Source of the DNA: a virus
Taxonomy: Duplodnaviria > Heunggongvirae > Uroviricota > Caudoviricetes
Length of the DNA: 64,000 nucleotides
IMG/VR virus record: IMGVR_UViG_2974665086_000001
Location: 54,700-118,699 of that record
Direction: 5' to 3' (one strand)
Shown here: in pieces, positions 26,154 to 31,543 of the stretch
Position numbering within the stretch: position 1 is the first letter of the stretch
Layout: each line of letters starts with the position of its first letter
Made by a program: the position numbers and the translations under genes
The notes under the pieces: model-generated
What the model saw: only the letters and a program-made list of their open reading frames with translations
What the model was told of the DNA's origin: nothing
The model's database searches: none

Positions 26154-26159
26154 CGTTAT

Positions 26160-26258
26160 GAACCGGAGTTAGTTGTTTATCTGTTGCCAAAGTAGTATCG
26201 GTGAACCAACTATTCACCAGCCCGAGAAATCGGGTTTAACAATTAGCACAACAAGTTC
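26160..26258 (+). ncRNA. Y RNA-like element a (family of 12)
   Basis: 5' GAACCGG-N9-GTTTATC; 3' partner CAAGTTC; position 3 A pairs with T. Confidence 0.55.
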
Positions 26259-26267
26259 ATATCCAAT

Positions 26268-26338
26268 GTGACGTTGGTATAATGGTATTACATTTGCTTG
26301 CCAAGCAAATAACGCGGGTTCGATTCCCGTACGTCGCT
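26268..26338 (+). tRNA. tRNA-Gly (GCC)
   Basis: Acceptor GTGACGT/ACGTCGC, anticodon arm TTTGC-TTGCCAA-GCAAA, T-loop TTCGATT. Confidence 0.6.
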
Positions 26339-26345
26339 CTCGTTG

Positions 26346-26453
26346 AGCCGATTAGATATCGGTTATCATACTGGTTCGAATCCGGTCTTGTCTCTTTCGA
26401 GGGCACGATCAAGCACAATTTGGGTGCTATAATCCGATTCTTACACCATGCTC
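26346..26453 (+). ncRNA. Y RNA-like element b, contains internal T-arm (ACTGGTTCGAATCCGGT)
   Basis: 5' GAGCCGA-TTAGATATC-GGTTATC; 3' CATGCTC (G:C covariation). Confidence 0.6.
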
Positions 26454-26470
26454 AACTATAATTTAATGCT

Positions 26471-26647
26471 GAACCGATTGGTAGTTGGTTACCACGATAA
26501 AGCTGGACGAAAGAGCCAGCATACAAGTGTGGTCAATAAAAGGCTTAACACTTATGGTTTTACCCCGTTAGACGCTTTACCTTTTTGGCATCCGCAGGTA
26601 AAGTGAACGCTAGGATACGCCACTTCCAACAATCAGATAACATGTTC
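26471..26647 (+). ncRNA. Y RNA-like element c (long, ~177 nt)
   Basis: 5' GAACCGA-TTGGTAGTT-GGTTACC; 3' AACATGTTC; -10-like CTATAAT 9 nt upstream. Confidence 0.55.
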
Positions 26648-26739
26648 AGTTAAAGTTTCTAGGCCAGCGAATTTACAAAGGAGTCCCCGAGGGGAAAGTT
26701 TCAGCTTGTGCCTAGAAGGCCAGGGTTCGCCCTGGTTCT

Positions 26740-26950: not shown

Positions 26951-27419
26951 AATATATTATGAACTGGATTGACAACTTCAATCAAGACTTGTTAGAGTTT
27001 TTGCGTGAAGATGATGTAATTCCTAAAGGGTATTCGATCCATGAAATTCAGACCAGAGAGAGCACTAAAAAGTGTGGCGAAGGAACCTGCGACCTTACTT
27101 ACTTTCCATTGACCATATGGGTAATAAACACGTGGAAAACAAATTGTAAGATAATCGAGTCGGAGTACGACTTTGCAGAATTTATGCAATGGGTTGCCAA
27201 CAAACAAAGATCGATTAAGGATTCTAAGTGAAATCTCTTATGAGCGCAGCAGTTCTGATAATCGCAGCAATAGGAGTTATTTCTCTTATTTACACGACTG
27301 CAATGTTCGGAATCGAAACAACGTTTAAGTGCGGTGCACTAGAGTCCGTGCCGGTTGCAGAAAAAGAATGCTGGCAGCCTTTTACAGGTAATGTTAAGCT
27401 AGACTAATCAGGAGATATA

Positions 27420-28127: not shown

Positions 28128-28330
28128 TGATTTGGCTAGCTAATGCTATTATGATATTCTGTGTAGCAACTATGGCCGGGATGATAATTTTTGTGATAGC
28201 GACGATTGTCGGGCAAGTTCTCAAATGGGCTTGCACTTTCCTGCTAGACCTAGTAGAGTTCATCTCAGCGCAGATCAGAGACTACCGATCAGCTCGCAGA
28301 CACAAGCGCTTGACAGACAACAAGCACTAA
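28124..28330 (+). CDS. small membrane protein
   Basis: 68 aa, single long hydrophobic segment. Confidence 0.35.
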   Translation: MMIWLANAIMIFCVATMAGMIIFVIATIVGQVLKWACTFLLDLVEFISAQIRDYRSARRHKRLTDNKH

Positions 28331-28384
28331 GATAGACTGAATTACGAAACACAGTGAATGAAATTGTTGCCTAACAAAGGAATT

Positions 28385-28413
28385 TGACAATGCTCTGAAC
28401 ATAGTGTAGAGTA
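28385..28413 (+). promoter_or_regulatory. sigma70-like promoter TTGACA-N17-TAGAGT driving the ncRNA/tRNA array
   Basis: TTGACA at 28385-28390, 17-nt spacer, TAGAGT 28408-28413; predicted start about 3 nt before element f. Confidence 0.45.
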
Positions 28414-28423
28414 GAACAAGTAC

Positions 28424-28502
28424 GAAACGGATAGCACGTCGGTTATCAACCAATTTGAATTAGTTATGGCCTATGGCCTCTCCGACAGCTAATAACATTT
28501 TC
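28424..28502 (+). ncRNA. Y RNA-like element f (variant GAAACGG)
   Basis: 5' GAAACGG-ATAGCACGT-CGGTTATC; 3' CATTTTC - double compensatory change (C4>A with G>T) preserves pairing. Confidence 0.55.
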
Positions 28503-28512
28503 GTACTACCAA

Positions 28513-28585
28513 TGGTCACTAGCTTAACTGGCAAAGCTACACCCTGTTAAGGTGTCCGATGTAGGTTCGAATCCTACGTGATCAG
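28513..28585 (+). tRNA. tRNA-Asn (GUU)
   Basis: Acceptor TGGTCAC/GTGATCA, D-arm GCTT..AAGC, anticodon arm ACACC-CTGTTAA-GGTGT, T-arm GTAGGTTCGAATCCTAC. Confidence 0.75.
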
Positions 28586-28591
28586 CTTTAA

Positions 28592-28720
28592 GAACCGAAT
28601 GTAGAGTCGTTTATCCTTCTGCAAAAAGGCTAGACTGGGTTCGAATCCCGGTGCCCCTGCCAACTTAGGGGTATAGTGTAATGGTAGCACAGTAAAAACG
28701 CGATTCTCGGCAACATGTTC
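28592..28720 (+). ncRNA. Y RNA-like element d with internal permuted tRNA-like module
   Basis: 5' GAACCGA-ATGTAGAGTC-GTTTATC; 3' AACATGTTC; internal CTGGGTTCGAATCCCGG T-arm, TGCCCCT-gccaactt-AGGGGTA closed acceptor-like stem, then TAGTGTAATGGTAGCAC D-arm. Confidence 0.6.
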
Positions 28721-28749
28721 TTATCAACTTCAATCAGAATGGAAGCAAA

Positions 28750-28905
28750 ATGCCAGAAGAAACAGTAACGATTAGCAAGCAGCAGTATGATAGTCTTGTT
28801 GAGGACAGTGAATTTCTCCAAAGATTGCAAGACGGCGGGGTAGACAATTGGCCTGGATACAGCGATTGTTACACGCAAGAAAAATTCGAAGCAGCCTTCG
28901 GATAA
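28750..28905 (+). CDS. small protein (51 aa) embedded in the ncRNA array; not in ORF track
   Basis: ATG 28750 preceded by GGAAGCAAA; MPEETVTISKQQYDSLVEDSEFLQRLQDGGVDNWPGYSDCYTQEKFEAAFG. Confidence 0.3.
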   Translation: MPEETVTISKQQYDSLVEDSEFLQRLQDGGVDNWPGYSDCYTQEKFEAAFG

Positions 28906-28917
28906 CATAAACTTTCT

Positions 28918-29009
28918 GAACCGGCAAGGTATTGGTTATCTAACAATGAATAAAACAAATCGGGGCAACGGTAACACCGGCCCTATATCCGATCCTTAAA
29001 CACATGTTC
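28918..29009 (+). ncRNA. Y RNA-like element e1
   Basis: 5' GAACCGG-CAAGGTATT-GGTTATC; 3' CACATGTTC. Confidence 0.55.
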
Positions 29010-29034
29010 AGAACAACAATTTAAAAAGCTTTTT

Positions 29035-29150
29035 GAGCCGACTGGTAATTGGTTATCTTACAATTAATTTGATAATAAACCCGCGTGAGTTCGATTCTCA
29101 CTTGGTCACATGGCTGAGGGGACCAAATCTCCGATTCCAACAACATGCTC
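29035..29150 (+). ncRNA. Y RNA-like element e2 with internal T-arm plus closed acceptor-like hairpin
   Basis: 5' GAGCCGA-CTGGTAATT-GGTTATC (compare hY4 GGUCCGAUGGUAGUGGGUUAUC); GTGAGTTCGATTCTCAC then TTGGTC..GACCAA hairpin; 3' AACATGCTC. Confidence 0.6.
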
Positions 29151-29172
29151 AAAATTTAACTTAATATCTTAA

Positions 29173-29237
29173 GAGCCGGATGACAACGGTTAACCAACAC
29201 TCATATTGTTCCTACACCCGTTGTCAGTTACATGCTC
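29173..29237 (+). ncRNA. Y RNA-like element e3 (short, 65 nt)
   Basis: 5' GAGCCGG; 8-bp upper stem GACAACGG/CCGTTGTC; 3' CATGCTC; TAATAT -10-like 6 nt upstream. Confidence 0.6.
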
Positions 29238-29255
29238 TCAAGATCAAAGACTTAT

Positions 29256-29347
29256 GAACCGGAGAACTTCGTTTATCTTGTCAATTCGAGACGGTAGGGT
29301 TCGATTCCCTCCGTATGGGCTGGTGCCTATCGAAGTTCATAACACGT
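29256..29347 (+). ncRNA. Y RNA-like element e4 with internal T-arm
   Basis: 5' GAACCGG; 8-bp upper stem GAACTTCG/CGAAGTTC; AGGGTTCGATTCCCT; 3' CACGTTC. Confidence 0.6.
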
Positions 29348-29354
29348 TCATACT

Positions 29355-29425
29355 ATGTGGCACACCGTAGGCTGTGGGAGCGTGACTGTAAATCACTACT
29401 CTGAGAGTTCGAATCTCTCGTGCCA
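29355..29425 (+). tRNA. tRNA, anticodon GUA (Tyr?) with short variable arm - identity uncertain
   Basis: Acceptor GTGGCAC/GTGCCAC perfect, anticodon arm CGTGA-CTGTAAA-TCACT, T-arm GAGAGTTCGAATCTCTC; D-arm irregular. Confidence 0.45.
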
Positions 29426-29431
29426 CACCAA

Positions 29432-29490
29432 GCGAGCCGGATTGTGACGTTTATCTTATGGCATAAACACGTTACAAGCGAACATGCTTG
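29432..29490 (+). ncRNA. Y RNA-like element e5 (short)
   Basis: 5' GAGCCGG-ATTGTGAC-GTTTATC directly after the tRNA 3' end; 3' AACATGCTT. Confidence 0.5.
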
Positions 29491-29497
29491 CTATAAT
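29488..29497 (+). promoter_or_regulatory. extended -10 (TGcTATAAT) placing a start at the 5' G of element e6
   Basis: ttgctataat at 29488-29497; GAACCGC begins 29503. Confidence 0.45.
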
Positions 29498-29502
29498 TTT
29501 AC

Positions 29503-29633
29503 GAACCGCAGTAAATCGTTAATCAAAATCAGCTCAGATGTGGGTTCGAGTCCCACCCGTTAGGTTAAAAAACTTATCGGTAGCCCAACTGGCAGAGGCA
29601 GCCGACCCTTCTACGATTTATGACAACATGTTC
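29503..29633 (+). ncRNA. Y RNA-like element e6 with internal T-arm
   Basis: 5' GAACCGC-AGTAAATC-GTTAATC; upper stem CAGTAAATCG/CGATTTA; GTGGGTTCGAGTCCCAC; 3' AACATGTTC. Confidence 0.6.
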
Positions 29634-29647
29634 GTAATCAATACCCT

Positions 29648-29718
29648 AGTACCAGGCTAACAAACATAGGCGGCGGTCATAGTTTTCAGGTTCGAATCCT
29701 GATAGGGTAGCTTTTCTG
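29648..29718 (+). tRNA. tRNA-like element (acceptor and T-arm present, no foldable anticodon arm)
   Basis: TACCCTA/TAGGGTA acceptor and TCAGGTTCGAATCCTGA T-arm; body does not give canonical D/anticodon arms. Confidence 0.35.
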
Positions 29719-29842
29719 AGCCGACTATGTATCGGTTATCGCATTCGGAGCCGGAAGAGAAGGTTCGATTCCTTCACCCCCGACCATAGGGGGTTAGTGT
29801 ACTGGATAGCACTCTGTAAATCCCGATCATGCCAACATGCTC
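29718..29842 (+). ncRNA. Y RNA-like element g, directly upstream of rsr, with permuted tRNA-like module (paralog of d)
   Basis: 5' GAGCCGA-CTATGTATC-GGTTATC; GAAGGTTCGATTCCTTC T-arm, ACCCCC-gaccat-AGGGGGT closed stem, TAGTGTACTGGATAGCAC D-arm; 3' AACATGCTC. Confidence 0.65.
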
Positions 29843-29899
29843 AGAAACCAAACATATTCAACCAAAAGGGTTGAACCGAGAAGATAAAGAGGATGAAGA

Positions 29900-31504
29900 A
29901 TGTCAGCACTAGGTAATGTTAAGTTGAAGGAACCAAAGTCTACTCCGCAGACTGAAAAGGCGGTAAAGGGTCAGAAGCGTAACAACGCTGGTGGCTTTAG
30001 CTTTAAGATCGATGACAAGGATCGTTTTCGACGTTTCCTGACAATCGGTTCTGATGGTGGAACTTACTACGTGGGTGAGCAGAAGCTTACGGAAGAGCAC
30101 GTTAAGTTTGTTCAGAAGATCATCAAGCGTGATGGTTTGACAGCAGTCGAAGAGATTGTTAATGTCAGCTCTAACGCACTGGCACCGAAGAATACACAGG
30201 CTTTGTTCGCATTGGCTGTAGCATTCACTTCGGAAGACCTTAAGGTAAAGGCCGCTGCCAAGGCAGCATTGCCCAAGGTTGCTCGTACTTCTACTCATCT
30301 TTTTGAGTTCGCACAGTTCATCGAGAATATCGCTGGCTGGGGACGCGCTAAGACTAGTGCGGTTGCGAGCTGGTACGAAGACAAGACTCCTGATAGCCTT
30401 GCTTACCAGGCAGTTAAGTACCGTCAGCGTAATGGTTGGACTCACCGAGACCTGTTCCGTTTGTCTCATCCTCAGAAGGTTGACAGCGGACTTGCAGAGT
30501 GGATTCTGCGCGGGAACAACGAAAACGTTCCTGAAATTATCTCCATTTTCGAAGAGTTGCAGGCAGCTACCACAGAGGCCAAGGCACTTAAGATTATGAA
30601 GCGTAATGCAGATGCAAACATTGCATGGGAATTCTTGCCAACTGAGCTTCACAACTCGGCAAAGATTTGGTCTGAACTGTTCTACCGTGGAATGGGTCAC
30701 ACAGCTCTGCTACGTAACACAAGTCGTATGCACAAGCTTGGTCTGTTTAACGATATGAAGTTCGCAGCAGATTACGCAGCAGCTCTCGCAGACGAAAACC
30801 TTATTCGTAAGGGTCGTATGCATCCGATTCAGTACCTTAATGCTTACGCAGCATACAACGGTGATCCTGACGGACAGGCAAGTTACTGGGGTGGCGATTG
30901 CCATAAGGGTGTTGACGGTGCTAATAACAAGATCGTCGCAGCACTGGAAGCGGGATACAATTCTGCTTTCCAGAACGTTGAGCCTGCCAACAAGCGTACT
31001 TTGATGGGACTGGACGTGTCCGGTTCAATGTCTCAGGCCGCTTCTGGGCTTAAGCTCAGTTGTGCAACTTTGGGCGCAGCATTCAGTCAGACTTTGGTTA
31101 AGCGTGAACCTTACGCGGTTATCAAGGGCTTCACGAATGAGTTTAAGGACTTGGGAATCAGTGATTCCGATAACCTTAAGACTGTAATGTCCAAGGTGAC
31201 AAGGCAGAACTTCGGTCGTACCGATTGTTCACTGCCTATGGTTTGGGCACTGGAAAAGAAGGTAGAAGTTGATACCTTCGTGGTGTTCACGGACAACGAG
31301 ACATACGCGGGACGCCAGCACCCTCACCAGGCGCTAGAGCGTTACCGTCAGCAGATGGGCATTCCTGCACGCTTGGTTGTGGTTGCGGCTACAGCAACGC
31401 GTTTCTCGATTGCCGATCCTACGGACGCTGGTAGCCTGGACGTGTCGGGGTTCGATGCGAGCACGCTAAAGACTATCGCAGACTTTAGTGCAGGTCGTAT
31501 CTAG
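29900..31504 (+). CDS. rsr: Ro60/Rsr ortholog (TROVE domain + vWA domain)
   Basis: RFRRFLTIGSDGGTYYVGEQKL and ALFALAVA align with human Ro60 [22 protein letters not shown] / MLFALAIC; C-terminal MIDAS motif MGLDVSGSMS; 534 aa. Confidence 0.9.
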   Translation: MSALGNVKLKEPKSTPQTEKAVKGQKRNNAGGFSFKIDDKDRFRRFLTIGSDGGTYYVGEQKLTEEHVKFVQKIIKRDGLTAVEEIVNVSSNALAPKNTQALFALAVAFTSEDLKVKAAAKAALPKVARTSTHLFEFAQFIENIAGWGRAKTSAVASWYEDKTPDSLAYQAVKYRQRNGWTHRDLFRLSHPQKVDSGLAEWILRGNNENVPEIISIFEELQAATTEAKALKIMKRNADANIAWEFLPTELHNSAKIWSELFYRGMGHTALLRNTSRMHKLGLFNDMKFAADYAAALADENLIRKGRMHPIQYLNAYAAYNGDPDGQASYWGGDCHKGVDGANNKIVAALEAGYNSAFQNVEPANKRTLMGLDVSGSMSQAASGLKLSCATLGAAFSQTLVKREPYAVIKGFTNEFKDLGISDSDNLKTVMSKVTRQNFGRTDCSLPMVWALEKKVEVDTFVVFTDNETYAGRQHPHQALERYRQQMGIPARLVVVAATATRFSIADPTDAGSLDVSGFDASTLKTIADFSAGRI

Positions 31505-31508
31505 TTAG

Positions 31509-31543
31509 TTGTCGGGGAGTAGTGATAAATTACTCCCCGACTT
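31509..31543 (+). terminator. stem-loop terminator after rsr
   Basis: GTCGGGGAGTA...TACTCCCCGAC 11-bp hairpin. Confidence 0.6.

What the first reader, a model, noticed from the sequence alone, without database searches (positions are those of the whole stretch)
28592..29842. Duplicated internal tRNA-mimic module with permuted topology inside two Y-like RNAs
Elements d (28592-28720) and g (29718-29842) each contain the same ordered module: a T-arm, then a 7-nt acceptor 3' strand, a 4-6-nt loop, a 7-nt acceptor 5' strand, then TA and a D-arm (GTGTA.TGG.TAGCAC). The terminal Y helix sits where the anticodon stem would be. This is what a tRNA-like domain has to look like if it is internal to a Y RNA. 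It matches the tRNA-mimic domain reported for bacterial YrlA-type Y RNAs. The two modules are paralogous (AGGGGTATAGTGTAATGGTAGCAC versus AGGGGGTTAGTGTACTGGATAGCAC). Each is followed by CAACATGYTC and then a protein-coding gene (a 51-aa ORF and rsr). Elements b, e2, e4 and e6 carry partial versions with a T-arm, with or without a closed stem.
Basis: partly seen in the sequence, partly recalled or inferred. Interest (0 to 1): 0.8.

Follow-up and report, generated by a model that had tools for sequence, protein, structure and literature searches.

The report
Phage Y RNAs with tRNA-like domains
The two elements are unannotated YrlA-type Y RNAs of Rhodococcus phage Trina, small RNAs predicted to partner the phage's Ro60 protein and carrying an internal tRNA look-alike: a known RNA class, here in an unusually large array and with a built-in tRNA-style CCA end.

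Summary
The window is Rhodococcus phage Trina. Both elements exist as described (28589-28723 and 29715-29845). Each has a 7-bp terminal stem, a second helix, a small hairpin, a T-arm, a closed 7-nt/7-nt acceptor-like stem, UA and a D-arm.

A covariance model built only from related metagenomic phages hits them at 114 and 79 bits. It also hits the published mycobacteriophage ET08 YrlA and RNAs upstream of rsr in most of 80 bacterial loci. Across 20 homologues, 96.6% of pair cells are paired and 33 of 36 pairs show double-sided changes.

The permuted topology is the published definition of that class.

Corrections:
- A third element (29500-29636) also has a complete module.
- The two are old paralogues with orthologues in other phages, not a private duplication.
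- They belong to at least 11 Y-like RNAs, nine of them in one tRNA-punctuated apparent operon ending in rsr.

New point: both modules encode N-CCA directly after the acceptor 3' strand. This holds for 8 of 23 stems in phage loci, all eight in the Trina-related contigs, and 0 of 45 bacterial YrlAs. It suggests RNase P processing to a free CCA end.

Verdict: new members of a known kind.

The parts
28589..28723 (+). P1 is 28589-28595 with 28717-28723. P2 is 28603-28609 with 28701-28707. The variable hairpin is 28615-28629. The tRNA-like module is 28635-28690.
   Evidence: R1 114.3 bits, E 6e-28. Parse. MFE fold. Covariation of all helices.
28635..28690 (+). Y1 tRNA-like module: T-arm 28635-28651, acceptor 3' strand 28652-28658, G73-CCA 28659-28662, linker ACUU 28663-28666, acceptor 5' strand 28667-28673, U8A9 28674-28675, D-arm 28676-28690.
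   Evidence: The same acceptor stem and the GCCA are present in the Y1 orthologues at L006 3804-3937 and L011 4525-4656.
29715..29845 (+). P1 is 29715-29721 with 29839-29845.
   Evidence: R1 78.9 bits, E 1.8e-18. A 99% identical copy lies in an independent metagenomic contig, L005 259-389.
29759..29812 (+). Y8 tRNA-like module: T-arm 29759-29775, acceptor 3' strand 29776-29782, A73-CCA 29783-29786, linker U 29787, acceptor 5' strand 29788-29794, UA 29795-29796, D-arm 29797-29812.
   Evidence: 6 of 7 acceptor pairs, with an A1xG72 mismatch.
29500..29636 (+). T-arm 29540-29556, extended closed stem 29557-29580 (one UxU mismatch, no CCA), UA 29581-29582, D-arm 29583-29599 with 3 bp.
   Evidence: Rfam YrlA 23.7 bits full length. 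R1 36.1 bits. R2 39.9 bits. Parse.
28421..28505 (+). Y0: short Y-like RNA without a T-arm, first element after the promoter-like site.
   Evidence: R2 43.3 bits, E 9e-10.
28915..29012 (+). Y2: Y-like RNA with the shell and hairpins, no T-arm.
   Evidence: R2 41.6 bits. Perfect 7-bp terminal stem.
29032..29153 (+).
   Evidence: R1 40.1 bits. R2 45.1 bits.
29170..29240 (+). Y4: minimal Y-like RNA (P1, P2 and a loop), YrlB-like.
   Evidence: R2 62.6 bits. The shell covaries in 14 of 16 pairs.
29253..29352 (+).
   Evidence: R1 37.1 bits.
29431..29492 (+). Y6: minimal Y-like RNA that starts directly after the CCA of the tRNA-Tyr-like gene.
   Evidence: R2 50.4 bits. Spacing.
26157..26456 (+). Two further Y-like RNAs outside the finding (26157-26261 and 26342-26456), each starting 2 nt after a tRNA-Gly.
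   Evidence: R2 40.6 and 33.3 bits. R1 30.2 bits for the second. Spacing.
29900..31504 (+). rsr: Ro60 orthologue, the predicted protein partner of all these RNAs.
   Evidence: Pfam vWA_Ro60 1.7e-59 and TROVE 1.3e-38. Annotated in GenBank as Ro RNA binding protein.
28513..28586 (+). tRNA-Asn(GUU) between Y0 and Y1. Y1 starts 2 nt after it.
29357..29430 (+). tRNA-Tyr(GUA)-like gene with an aberrant D-arm and an encoded CCA, between Y5 and Y6.
   Evidence: Rfam tRNA 29.1 bits, at threshold. Not called by ARAGORN. Annotated in GenBank.
29642..29709 (+). Degenerate tRNA-like remnant (acceptor stem and T-arm only) between Y7 and Y8.
   Evidence: Fold (z -0.8, weak). GenBank's pseudo 'tRNA-OTHER' at 29578-29786 overlaps it.
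28750..28905 (+). 51-aa ORF inside the Y RNA array: T7 gp5.9-like RecBCD inhibitor.
   Evidence: Pfam PF25708, 3.4e-18. GenBank product name.
28384..28412 (+). Promoter-like site (TTGACA-17-TAGAGT), 8 nt upstream of Y0. This is a consensus match only.
31511..31541 (+). Intrinsic-terminator-like hairpin (13 bp) 6 nt after the rsr stop codon. This is a consensus match only.

Best explanation
Y1 (28589-28723) and Y8 (29715-29845) are YrlA-class Y RNAs of Rhodococcus phage Trina.

Anatomy, shown here. Each RNA has two modules. The first is a shell: a 7-bp terminal stem, an asymmetric internal loop (5' CCGR, 3' AACAUG) and a second helix. All 11 Y-like RNAs in the window share this shell. The second is a tRNA-like module: variable hairpin, T-arm, closed acceptor-like stem, UA and D-arm. 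The shell sits where the anticodon arm of a tRNA would be.

Mechanism, inferred:
- The shell is the docking site for the phage Ro60/Rsr protein encoded at the end of the same apparent operon.
- The tRNA-like module folds into an L-shape with a D-loop/T-loop elbow. It acts as the effector and stabilising end of the RNP, tethering Rsr to a tRNA-binding or RNA-decay partner, as YrlA and Yrn1 do with PNPase in bacteria.
- The RNAs are made as one polycistronic transcript from about 28412 to the terminator at 31541. They are released by tRNA-processing enzymes acting on the interspersed tRNA and tRNA-like genes.
- Y1 and Y8 have a 12-bp acceptor/T stack followed by an encoded N-CCA and a 1-4 nt linker. 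I infer that RNase P cuts 5' of acceptor position +1 and that exonucleases trim back to CCA. The product would be a two-piece Y RNA with a free tRNA-like 3' end. This processing was shown experimentally for Mycobacterium smegmatis YrlA, where the CA is added after transcription.
For: Identity and context: the window matches Trina NC_042040.1 at 100%. The Rsr protein has TROVE and vWA_Ro60 domains. All Y-like elements are on the rsr strand and occur only in two clusters within 64 kb.

Structure: an alignment of 20 homologues from 12 loci shows 96.6% of pair cells paired, against 68.9% in shuffles and 37-46% in slid controls. 33 of 36 pairs have double-sided changes, including 7 of 7 acceptor-like pairs, 4 of 5 T-stem pairs and 3 of 4 D-stem pairs. 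RNAalifold on the same alignment independently predicts P1, P2, the T-arm, the acceptor-like stem and the D-arm.

tRNA elbow nucleotides present in both modules: U8, A14, GG in the D-loop, A21, G53:C61 and a UUCGAWU T-loop.

Homology to YrlA: R1 hits the published ET08 YrlA at 55.7 bits and gives 95 matches in 80 bacterial rsr loci. Rfam YrlA gives significant sub-threshold hits to orthologous elements, for example L006 4760-4877 at 41 bits, E 9e-6.

Shell: P1 and P2 covary in 14 of 16 pairs among 13 short paralogues and orthologues.

Processing:
- Five Y RNAs start 0-5 nt after a tRNA or tRNA-like 3' end.
- A promoter-like site and a terminator-like hairpin bracket the array.
- N-CCA follows the 7-nt acceptor 3' strand in 8 of 23 distinct stems in phage loci, all eight in the Trina-related contigs (binomial against 1/64, 1.4e-9). 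The comparison figures are 4 of 60 ordinary tRNA genes in the same contigs and 0 of 45 bacterial YrlA stems (Fisher 6.6e-5).
- The nucleotide at -1 is U in 6 of 9 N-CCA loops.

Precedent: M. smegmatis YrlA has a 7-bp stem, is cleaved by RNase P in vivo and in vitro, gains a CCA end, and both halves co-precipitate with Rsr (PMC4201824).
Against: - No expression, Rsr-binding, modification or cleavage data exist for Trina. Every functional step is inferred.
- The strict published Rsr motif GNCGAAN0-1G is not matched exactly by any Trina element. Each is one mismatch away, for example ACCGAAUG and GCCGACUG.
- The Levitt 15:48 pair is non-canonical in Y1 (A/A) and Y8 (C/A).
- Rfam's YrlA model scores Y1 at only 17.4 bits and reports no YrlA match to Y8, against a threshold of 69.
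- Y8 has an A1xG72 mismatch and only a 5-nt loop, which may be a poor RNase P substrate.
- Single-sequence folding z-scores are modest.
- The promoter and terminator are consensus matches only. The promoter scan is not enriched over shuffles (13 found, 10.2 expected).
- The biological role of Rsr and Y RNA in any phage is unknown.
Confidence: 0.85

Rival explanations
1. The elements are mainly cis-acting processing signals. On this view the tRNA-like folds recruit RNase P or RNase Z to cut the long transcript and define the ends of the gp5.9-like and rsr mRNAs. They would not be stable trans-acting Rsr partners.
For: Both N-CCA modules directly precede the only two protein genes in the array. 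Y1 ends 26 nt before the 51-aa ORF and Y8 ends 54 nt before rsr. The array is punctuated by tRNA and tRNA-like genes. tRNA-like 3'-end processing signals are known for mammalian lncRNAs (cited in 10.1101/312249).
Against: The Y1 orthologue in L006 (3804-3937) has no called gene in the roughly 150 nt before the next Y-like element, so the link to a downstream ORF is not conserved. The conserved, covarying shell shared by 11 elements has no role in a pure processing signal, but it is what a common protein ligand predicts. In M. smegmatis both halves of the cleaved YrlA remain Rsr-bound. The two readings do not exclude each other.
Confidence: 0.08
2. The elements are decayed or rearranged tRNA gene fragments, for example the 3' half of one tRNA fused to the 5' half of the next. 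They would be left over from recombination in a tRNA-rich phage region and have no function of their own.
For: The window holds 27 tRNA genes. BLAST of Y1 finds the junction of adjacent tRNA-Gln and tRNA-Trp genes in Escherichia phage 4MG, covering a T-arm, a spacer and the next D-arm. This shows how such a permuted arrangement could arise. GenBank annotates part of the region as a pseudo 'tRNA-OTHER'.
Against: Every helix, including the acceptor-like stem that would join two different tRNAs, is kept by compensatory changes across phages. An example is UGCCCCU/AGGGGUA against UGCAGAC/GUCUGUA against CCCCGCA/UGCGGGG. The modules are always enclosed in the same covarying Y shell next to rsr. The same architecture is found in most of 80 bacterial rsr loci. 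Origin from tRNA genes is plausible. Present-day decay is not.
Confidence: 0.03
3. The elements are functional circularly permuted tRNA genes or the tRNA-like domain of a two-piece (permuted) tmRNA.
For: The gene order T-arm, acceptor 3' strand, N-CCA, short spacer, acceptor 5' strand is the order found in permuted tmRNA genes. Rfam gives weak matches of this segment to tmRNA models: cyano_tmRNA 13.2 bits, tmRNA_permuted 12.9 bits and beta_tmRNA 8.8 bits.
Against: These scores are far below threshold (47-84 bits) with E-values of 0.7-7. ARAGORN, which searches for permuted tmRNA, reports none in the window. There is no anticodon stem-loop: helix P2 and the terminal stem occupy that position. 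No tag reading frame or pseudoknots are evident. Bacteria lack the splicing and circularisation route used for permuted tRNAs in algae.
Confidence: 0.02

Closest known systems
Mycobacterium smegmatis YrlA (Chen et al. 2014, PMC4201824)
   Same: It is an actinobacterial-type YrlA encoded upstream of rsr on the same strand. It has a T-arm, a 7-bp acceptor-like stem, UA and a D-arm. The 7-bp stem makes it an RNase P substrate, its 5' half ends in CCA, and it is co-transcribed with a second Y RNA.
   Different: In M. smegmatis the CA is added after transcription. Trina Y1 and Y8 encode N-CCA in the loop. M. smegmatis has two known Y RNAs, whereas Trina has at least 11. Cleavage of the Trina RNAs has not been tested.
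Salmonella Typhimurium YrlA (crystal structure 6CU1; Wang et al., bioRxiv 10.1101/312249; Rfam RF02553)
   Same: The order of elements is the same: AC 5' strand, variable loop with conserved UA, T stem-loop, closed acceptor stem, UA, D stem-loop, AC 3' strand. The elbow nucleotides are the same. The Ro60-binding stem extends from the anticodon-stem position.
   Different: The Salmonella acceptor stem is 6 bp, closed, without CCA, and is not cleaved by RNase P. Sequence similarity is low: the Rfam model scores Y1 at 17.4 bits and reports no YrlA match to Y8. Salmonella YrlA lies in an RtcR-regulated rsr-yrlBA-rtcBA operon, and I found no RNA ligase gene near Trina rsr in a limited search.
Mycobacteriophage ET08 YrlA (Chen et al. 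2014, Fig. 1D)
   Same: It is a phage-encoded YrlA just upstream of a phage Ro60 gene. The Y1-derived model hits it full length at 55.7 bits, E 1.6e-13. It is flanked by two short Y-like RNAs.
   Different: ET08 has 3 Y-like RNAs against at least 11 in Trina. Its acceptor-like stem closes an 18-nt loop. The Rsr proteins are only 41% identical.
Deinococcus radiodurans Yrn1/Yrn2 and the RYPER complex
   Same: [quoted passage not shown] The Y RNA tethers Rsr to PNPase.
   Different: Yrn1 has a different orientation of its T- and D-like arms and is regarded as an independent lineage. A link between Trina Rsr and PNPase is only an analogy.
Thermus phage phiLo Ro60 with Yrl1/Yrl2 (PMC12135203)
   Same: It is a phage Ro60 with Y RNA-like genes directly upstream. 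Binding to the phage Ro60 and to host PNPase was shown in vitro.
   Different: Only two Yrl RNAs were described, as stem-bulge-stem RNAs with a CGAA motif. The passages I read do not report a tRNA-like module.
Two-piece (circularly permuted) tmRNA genes
   Same: They share the gene order T-arm, acceptor 3' strand, CCA, intervening segment, acceptor 5' strand. Processing yields two base-paired pieces with a free CCA end.
   Different: tmRNA has a tag reading frame, pseudoknots and G3:U70 alanine identity. None of these is present here.

Membership tests
YrlA-class Y RNA (Chen 2014; Wang 2018; Rfam RF02553) | Encoded within about 4 kb of an Ro60/Rsr (TROVE) gene on the same strand | tested here: met
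   Y8 ends 54 nt and Y1 about 1.2 kb upstream of rsr (29900-31504, TROVE + vWA_Ro60), all on the + strand.
YrlA-class Y RNA (Chen 2014; Wang 2018; Rfam RF02553) | Long stem formed by pairing of the 5' and 3' ends | tested here: met
   There is a 7-bp P1 and a 7-9-bp P2. All 7 P1 pairs and 8 of 9 P2 pairs show double-sided changes in 20 homologues. 14 of 16 pairs do so in 13 short paralogues.
YrlA-class Y RNA (Chen 2014; Wang 2018; Rfam RF02553) | GNCGAAN0-1G motif near the 5' end (proposed Rsr contact) | tested here: inconclusive
   No Trina element matches the motif exactly. Y1 has ACCGAAUG and Y8 has GCCGACUG, one mismatch each. Orthologues such as L011 4525 (GCCGAAG) match.
YrlA-class Y RNA (Chen 2014; Wang 2018; Rfam RF02553) | Order: AC 5' strand, variable loop starting at YUAY, T stem-loop, closed acceptor-like stem-loop, UA, D stem-loop, AC 3' strand | tested here: met
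   This is the order in Y1, Y7 and Y8. YUAY (UUAU) lies 7-9 nt into the scanned stretch that begins at element position 15 in Y1 and Y8. Published order read.
YrlA-class Y RNA (Chen 2014; Wang 2018; Rfam RF02553) | tRNA elbow nucleotides: T-loop UUCRANY with G53:C61, D-loop A14 and G18G19, U8 | tested here: met
   Y1 and Y8 have UUCGAAU and UUCGAUU, a G-C closing pair, A14, GG, A21 and U8A9. The G53:C61 pair and the first five T-loop positions (UUCGA) are invariant in all 20 aligned homologues.
YrlA-class Y RNA (Chen 2014; Wang 2018; Rfam RF02553) | Levitt pair 15:48 (G:C or A:U) | tested here: not met
   Y1 has A15/A48 and Y8 has C15/A48. Y7 has A15:U48. By my reading of the alignment printed, most homologues have a pyrimidine before the T stem.
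YrlA-class Y RNA (Chen 2014; Wang 2018; Rfam RF02553) | Score at or above Rfam's gathering threshold (69 bits) | tested here: not met
   Y7 scores 23.7, Y1 scores 17.4 and Y8 has no YrlA match. The threshold is uninformative here. The published ET08 YrlA scores only 37.4, and none of 19 bacterial rsr loci (mostly actinobacterial) reaches it.
YrlA-class Y RNA (Chen 2014; Wang 2018; Rfam RF02553) | Detectable homology to an accepted YrlA | tested here: met
   Model R1, built from Y1 orthologues, hits ET08 YrlA at 55.7 bits, E 1.6e-13. It gives 95 matches in 80 bacterial rsr loci at 33-72 bits.
YrlA-class Y RNA (Chen 2014; Wang 2018; Rfam RF02553) | Bound by Rsr in vivo; T-loop and D-loop modified by TruB and DusA | not testable with these tools
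   This needs co-immunoprecipitation and modification mapping in infected Rhodococcus.
RNase P-processed YrlA subclass (M. smegmatis type) | Seven-base-pair acceptor-like stem stacked on a 5-bp T stem | tested here: met
   Y1 has 7/7 pairs. Y8 has 6/7, with the mismatch at 1:72.
RNase P-processed YrlA subclass (M. smegmatis type) | Cleavage at +1 and a CCA 3' end on the 5' half | not testable with these tools
   Only the encoded N-CCA is seen. Cleavage itself is inferred.
Functional tRNA, including permuted tRNA genes | Anticodon stem-loop with a 7-nt loop | tested here: not met
   ARAGORN and Rfam call no tRNA over Y1 or Y8. Helix P2 and the terminal stem occupy that position.
Two-piece (permuted) tmRNA | Tag reading frame, pseudoknots and a model score above threshold | tested here: not met
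   ARAGORN finds no tmRNA. RF04321 scores 12.9 bits against a threshold of 47, E 7.

The most novel reading that the evidence does not exclude
A subclass of phage YrlA RNAs has a 7-nt acceptor 3' strand followed by a genome-encoded N-CCA and a 1-5-nt linker. Trina Y1 and Y8 belong to it. It was seen only in the Trina-related phage contigs (8 of 23 phage-locus stems overall) and in none of 45 bacterial YrlA stems. On this reading RNase P matures these RNAs into two-piece Y RNAs with a genuine free tRNA-like CCA end. That end would then be used functionally. It might be aminoacylated, bound by EF-Tu or the CCA-adding enzyme, or serve as a decoy or sensor for host factors that attack tRNA 3' ends. 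This would couple the phage Ro60 RNP to the tRNA machinery during infection.
Probability: 0.25. Interest if true: 0.65.

Novelty: new member of a known kind. Interest (0 to 1): 0.4.

Why it matters
- The Trina record annotates none of these RNAs. One of them is partly covered by a spurious pseudo-tRNA annotation.
- Recognising at least 11 Y RNAs next to one Ro60 gene gives a compact natural library of Y RNA effector modules on a common Ro60-binding shell. The modules range from a full tRNA mimic, through a T-arm alone, to a plain hairpin. Related phage contigs carry 6-10 each. The most I found for described species in the papers I could read is 2 (3 in my own scan of phage ET08).
- The function of bacterial and phage Y RNA tRNA-like domains is an open question. 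The encoded CCA variant makes one idea directly testable: that the domain is processed and used like a tRNA acceptor end.
- The core finding does not change the current picture. It confirms the published YrlA architecture in one more phage lineage.

Tried and rejected
- Rfam at the gathering threshold finds only tRNAs in the window. In E-value mode YrlA is sub-threshold. I therefore calibrated the threshold and found it too strict even for the published ET08 YrlA and for bacterial rsr loci that are mostly actinobacterial.
- An IMG/VR scan with the single Rsr protein found no relatives. Close relatives came only from the large protein database and its Logan/ENA contigs.
- MAFFT alignments of full Y RNAs misplaced the acceptor loop and the D-arm. 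I seeded a covariance model from two cleanly aligned orthologues with a hand-written structure and let Infernal realign the rest.
- Searching the shell model with filters off truncated the long elements and was less useful than the default search.
- A possible 12th Y-like element at 26468-26650 has matching termini by regular expression only. Neither model reports it, so I do not count it.
- Pfam on neighbouring large ORFs gave no RNA ligase, CCA-adding enzyme or PNPase.
- The two Wolin-lab reviews (PMC10870794, PMC6047535) and the supplements of Chen 2014 are not held. I could not check how many Y RNAs per phage were listed there.
- No paper mentions phage Trina.
- I considered serine or other aminoacylation identity for Y1 (G73, G2:C71, hairpin at the variable-arm position). 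I left this as untested speculation.

Full report
**Source and context**

The window matches Rhodococcus phage Trina (NC_042040.1, 139,262 bp) at 100% identity. Window position equals record position minus 54,699. The window carries 27 tRNA genes by ARAGORN.

The ORF at 29900-31504 is a Ro60/Rsr orthologue (Pfam vWA_Ro60 1.7e-59, TROVE 1.3e-38). The 51-aa ORF at 28750-28905 is a T7 gp5.9-like RecBCD inhibitor (PF25708, 3.4e-18).

The GenBank record annotates no Y RNA. It has a pseudo 'tRNA-OTHER' at window 29578-29786 that runs from the D-arm of one Y RNA to the T-arm of the next.

**Checking the observation**

Eight elements between 28589 and 29845 share three motifs: GARCCG at the 5' end, GKUWAUC 16-17 nt later, and AACAYGYUC at the 3' end. 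Their outer 7 nt are perfectly complementary yet differ between copies, for example UAAGAAC/GUUCUUA, UCUGAGC/GCUCAGA and UACGAAC/GUUCGUA.

- Y1: T-arm CUGGG-UUCGAAU-CCCGG, acceptor 3' strand UGCCCCU, loop GCCAACUU, acceptor 5' strand AGGGGUA (7/7 pairs), UA, D-arm GUGU-AAUGGUA-GCAC.
- Y8: T-arm GAAGG-UUCGAUU-CCUUC, ACCCCCG, loop ACCAU, AGGGGGU (6/7 pairs, A1xG72), UA, D-arm GUGU-ACUGGAUA-GCAC.

MFE folding of each element alone gives the same three hairpins inside the terminal stem, with modest z-scores of -2.1 and -1.7.

It is the best Rfam YrlA match in the window (23.7 bits, full length).

**Relatives**

Annotated phages have only distant Rsr homologues: Streptomyces phages at about 50% identity and mycobacteriophages at about 41%. 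Closer relatives (56-97% Rsr identity) exist only as metagenomic contigs. I fetched ten of these.

All of them carry several Y-like elements upstream of rsr, roughly 6-10 per locus.

Y1 has clear orthologues:
- L006 3804-3937 and L011 4525-4656 have the same acceptor stem and the same GCCA.
- L009 3709-3836 has a fully compensated stem (UGCAGAC/GUCUGUA).
- L010 4833-4962 has another (CCCCGCA/UGCGGGG).

**Covariation**

I built a covariance model (R1) from the two cleanly aligned Y1 orthologues of L006 and L011, with a hand-written structure of six helices: P1, P2, variable hairpin, T, acceptor-like and D. No Trina sequence went into it.

It scores Trina Y1 at 114.3 bits (E 6e-28) and Y8 at 78.9 bits (E 1.8e-18). 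It also finds Y3, Y5, Y7 and an element at 26342-26456.

Results on the 20 best hits from 12 loci:
- 96.6% of pair cells are standard pairs, against 68.9% in shuffles and 37-46% when partners are slid by 1-3 columns.
- 33 of 36 pairs show changes on both sides.
- This includes all 7 acceptor-like pairs, 4 of 5 T-stem pairs and 3 of 4 D-stem pairs.

That alignment was fitted to the model, so it leans toward the given structure. As a check, RNAalifold run on the same alignment predicts P1, P2, T, the acceptor-like stem and D on its own, with 29 of 32 pairs compensated.

**What it is**

The order of parts is the published YrlA architecture. The crystal-structure paper lists AC (5'), variable loop with a conserved UA, T stem-loop, acceptor stem-loop, UA, D stem-loop and AC (3'). 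[quoted passage not shown]

Homology is direct:
- R1 hits the published mycobacteriophage ET08 YrlA full length at 55.7 bits, E 1.6e-13.
- R1 gives 95 matches in 80 bacterial rsr loci, mostly Actinomycetota, and most of them lie just upstream of rsr.

Rfam's YrlA model is below its 69-bit threshold for the Trina elements. It is also below threshold for ET08 (37.4 bits) and for all 19 bacterial loci tested. It gives significant sub-threshold hits to orthologous phage elements (41 bits, E 9e-6). That threshold therefore does not decide membership here.

Two features deviate from the published description:
- The strict GNCGAAN0-1G motif is one mismatch away in every Trina element.
- The 15:48 Levitt pair is non-canonical in Y1 and Y8.

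**The wider family in the window**

A second model (R2) describes only the shell, P1 plus P2. I built it from 13 short elements, in which 14 of 16 pairs are compensated. In the 64-kb window it finds Y0 (28421-28505), Y2, Y3, Y4, Y6, Y7, Y1 and two elements at 26157-26261 and 26342-26456 (plus a weak partial match over Y8). Nothing else in the window reaches E <= 1, and nothing on the minus strand does.

Together with R1 this gives 11 Y-like RNAs. Nine of them are packed between 28421 and 29845 with gaps of 0-26 nt.

Their inner modules differ:
- Full tRNA mimic: Y1, Y7, Y8.
- T-arm plus hairpin: Y3, Y5 and the element at 26342.
- Hairpins only: Y0, Y2, Y4, Y6 and the element at 26157.

Y1 and Y8 are 61% identical overall. 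Y1 is closer to its orthologues (82% to L006). Y8's variable hairpin is closest to the rsr-proximal element of L006 (75%), while its D-arm is closest to the Y1 type. They are old paralogues, possibly with some module exchange, and not a recent duplication.

**Expression logic (inferred)**

A promoter-like site (TTGACA-17-TAGAGT, 28384-28412) lies 8 nt before Y0. A 13-bp terminator-like hairpin (31511-31541) lies 6 nt after rsr. Both are consensus matches only.

Three tRNA or tRNA-like genes punctuate the array: tRNA-Asn, a tRNA-Tyr-like gene with encoded CCA, and a degenerate acceptor/T-arm remnant. Five Y RNAs begin 0-5 nt after a tRNA or tRNA-like 3' end. This resembles D. radiodurans, where Yrn2, tRNA-Asp and Yrn1 come from one precursor.

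**An unexpected feature**

In both Y1 and Y8, the 7-nt acceptor 3' strand is followed directly by N-CCA (G-CCA-ACUU and A-CCA-U).

I scanned all fetched phage loci for permuted modules: T-arm, 7-nt strand, loop, complementary 7-nt strand, U-R, D-arm. The counts are:
- 8 of 23 distinct acceptor stems have N-CCA at exactly this position (binomial against 1/64, 1.4e-9). All eight are in Trina or the Trina-related metagenomic contigs. None of the four stems from the Streptomyces-phage loci has it.
- 4 of 60 ordinary tRNA genes in the same contigs do (Fisher 0.003).
- 0 of 45 distinct stems in bacterial YrlAs do. Those mostly close with UUCG-type or other short loops, or extend further (Fisher 6.6e-5).
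- The nucleotide before acceptor position +1 is U in 6 of 9 such loops.

The only experimentally studied YrlA with a 7-bp stem is that of M. smegmatis. It is cleaved by RNase P in vivo and in vitro. Its 5' half is trimmed and receives CA to give a CCA end, and both halves co-precipitate with Rsr.

I therefore infer that Y1 and Y8 are matured into two-piece Y RNAs with a free CCA end that is encoded rather than added. This step is not shown.

**Rivals**

- A purely cis-acting processing role is possible for part of the function. It does not explain the shared covarying shell, and the Y1 orthologue in L006 is not followed by an ORF.
- Decayed tRNA fragments are excluded by covariation.
- A permuted tRNA or two-piece tmRNA is excluded by the absence of an anticodon arm or tag frame, by ARAGORN, and by Rfam scores of 9-13 bits against thresholds of 47-84.
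- A BLAST match of Y1 to the junction of adjacent tRNA genes in phage 4MG illustrates a plausible evolutionary origin from tandem tRNA genes.

**Verdict**

The elements are new, unannotated members of the YrlA class of Y RNAs, and the permuted topology is the class's known hallmark.

Two things go beyond the literature I could read: the size of the array (at least 11 in Trina, 6-10 in related phage contigs) and the encoded N-CCA subclass. Function in phage infection remains unknown. By analogy with bacterial Ro60-Y RNA-PNPase complexes and the Thermus phage phiLo work, the likeliest role is to adapt the phage Ro60 protein to host RNA-processing or tRNA-binding partners.

Noticed in passing
window 26157-26261 and 26342-26456: Two more Y-like RNAs lie 2 kb upstream of the array. 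Each starts 2 nt after a tRNA-Gly gene. The second has a T-arm-like hairpin (CUGGUUCGAAUCCGG). R2 scores them at 40.6 and 33.3 bits.
   Followed up: partly
window 26468-26650: A possible 12th Y-like element (183 nt) has matching termini (GCUGAAC...GUUCAGU) and a GGUUACC motif. It overlaps the annotated 52-aa hypothetical ORF at 26448-26606. Neither covariance model reports it.
   Followed up: partly
window 28750-28905: A T7 gp5.9-like RecBCD inhibitor gene (51 aa) is embedded in the middle of the Y RNA array. A gp5.9 homologue also lies near rsr in the related contig L014 (8822-9100).
   Followed up: no
window 29357-29430: A tRNA-Tyr(GUA)-like gene has an aberrant D-arm, no long variable arm and an encoded CCA. 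It scores exactly at the Rfam tRNA threshold (29.1 bits) and ARAGORN does not call it. Y6 starts at the next base.
   Followed up: partly
window 29578-29786 and 29642-29709: GenBank's pseudo 'tRNA-OTHER' appears to be an artefact that joins the D-arm of Y7 to the T-arm of Y8. Between them lies a degenerate tRNA-like remnant with only an acceptor stem and a T-arm.
   Followed up: partly
L005 67-183 compared with window 29500-29636: In a metagenomic phage whose Rsr is 97% identical and whose Y8 copy is 99% identical, the Y7 counterpart has a quite different inner module: a 4-bp stem with a UUCG loop and a different T stem and D-arm. This suggests fast turnover or exchange of effector modules.
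   Followed up: partly
L010 8553-8730, L007 7142-7323, L003 1617-1774: manA RNA motif (RF01745) matches lie next to tRNA genes in related phage contigs: 64.2 bits (above threshold), 53.2 bits and 45.6 bits. There is none in the Trina window.
   Followed up: no
Citrobacter phages (e.g. Moogle KM236239.1 64095-64147); Microbacterium phage Magritte OR553905.1 75763-75861: Y8 has a 76% match over 95 nt in an unannotated region of phage Magritte, probably another Y RNA. Weak matches (E 7e-4) of its T-arm and closed stem occur in Citrobacter phages that were not among the Rsr hits.
   Followed up: no
window 26969-26998, 28310-28338, 28384-28412: A promoter-like motif recurs as TTGACA-17/18-TAGAGT or TAGACT. 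It may be a phage promoter family. These are consensus matches only.
   Followed up: no
L047 682-1260; L043, L045, L055: Some bacterial rsr loci carry 3-4 tandem YrlA-like copies by the R1 model, so multi-copy arrays are not limited to phages. L016, L072 and L076, labelled as bacterial MAG contigs, hold dense tRNA arrays next to rsr and may be phage or prophage DNA.
   Followed up: no
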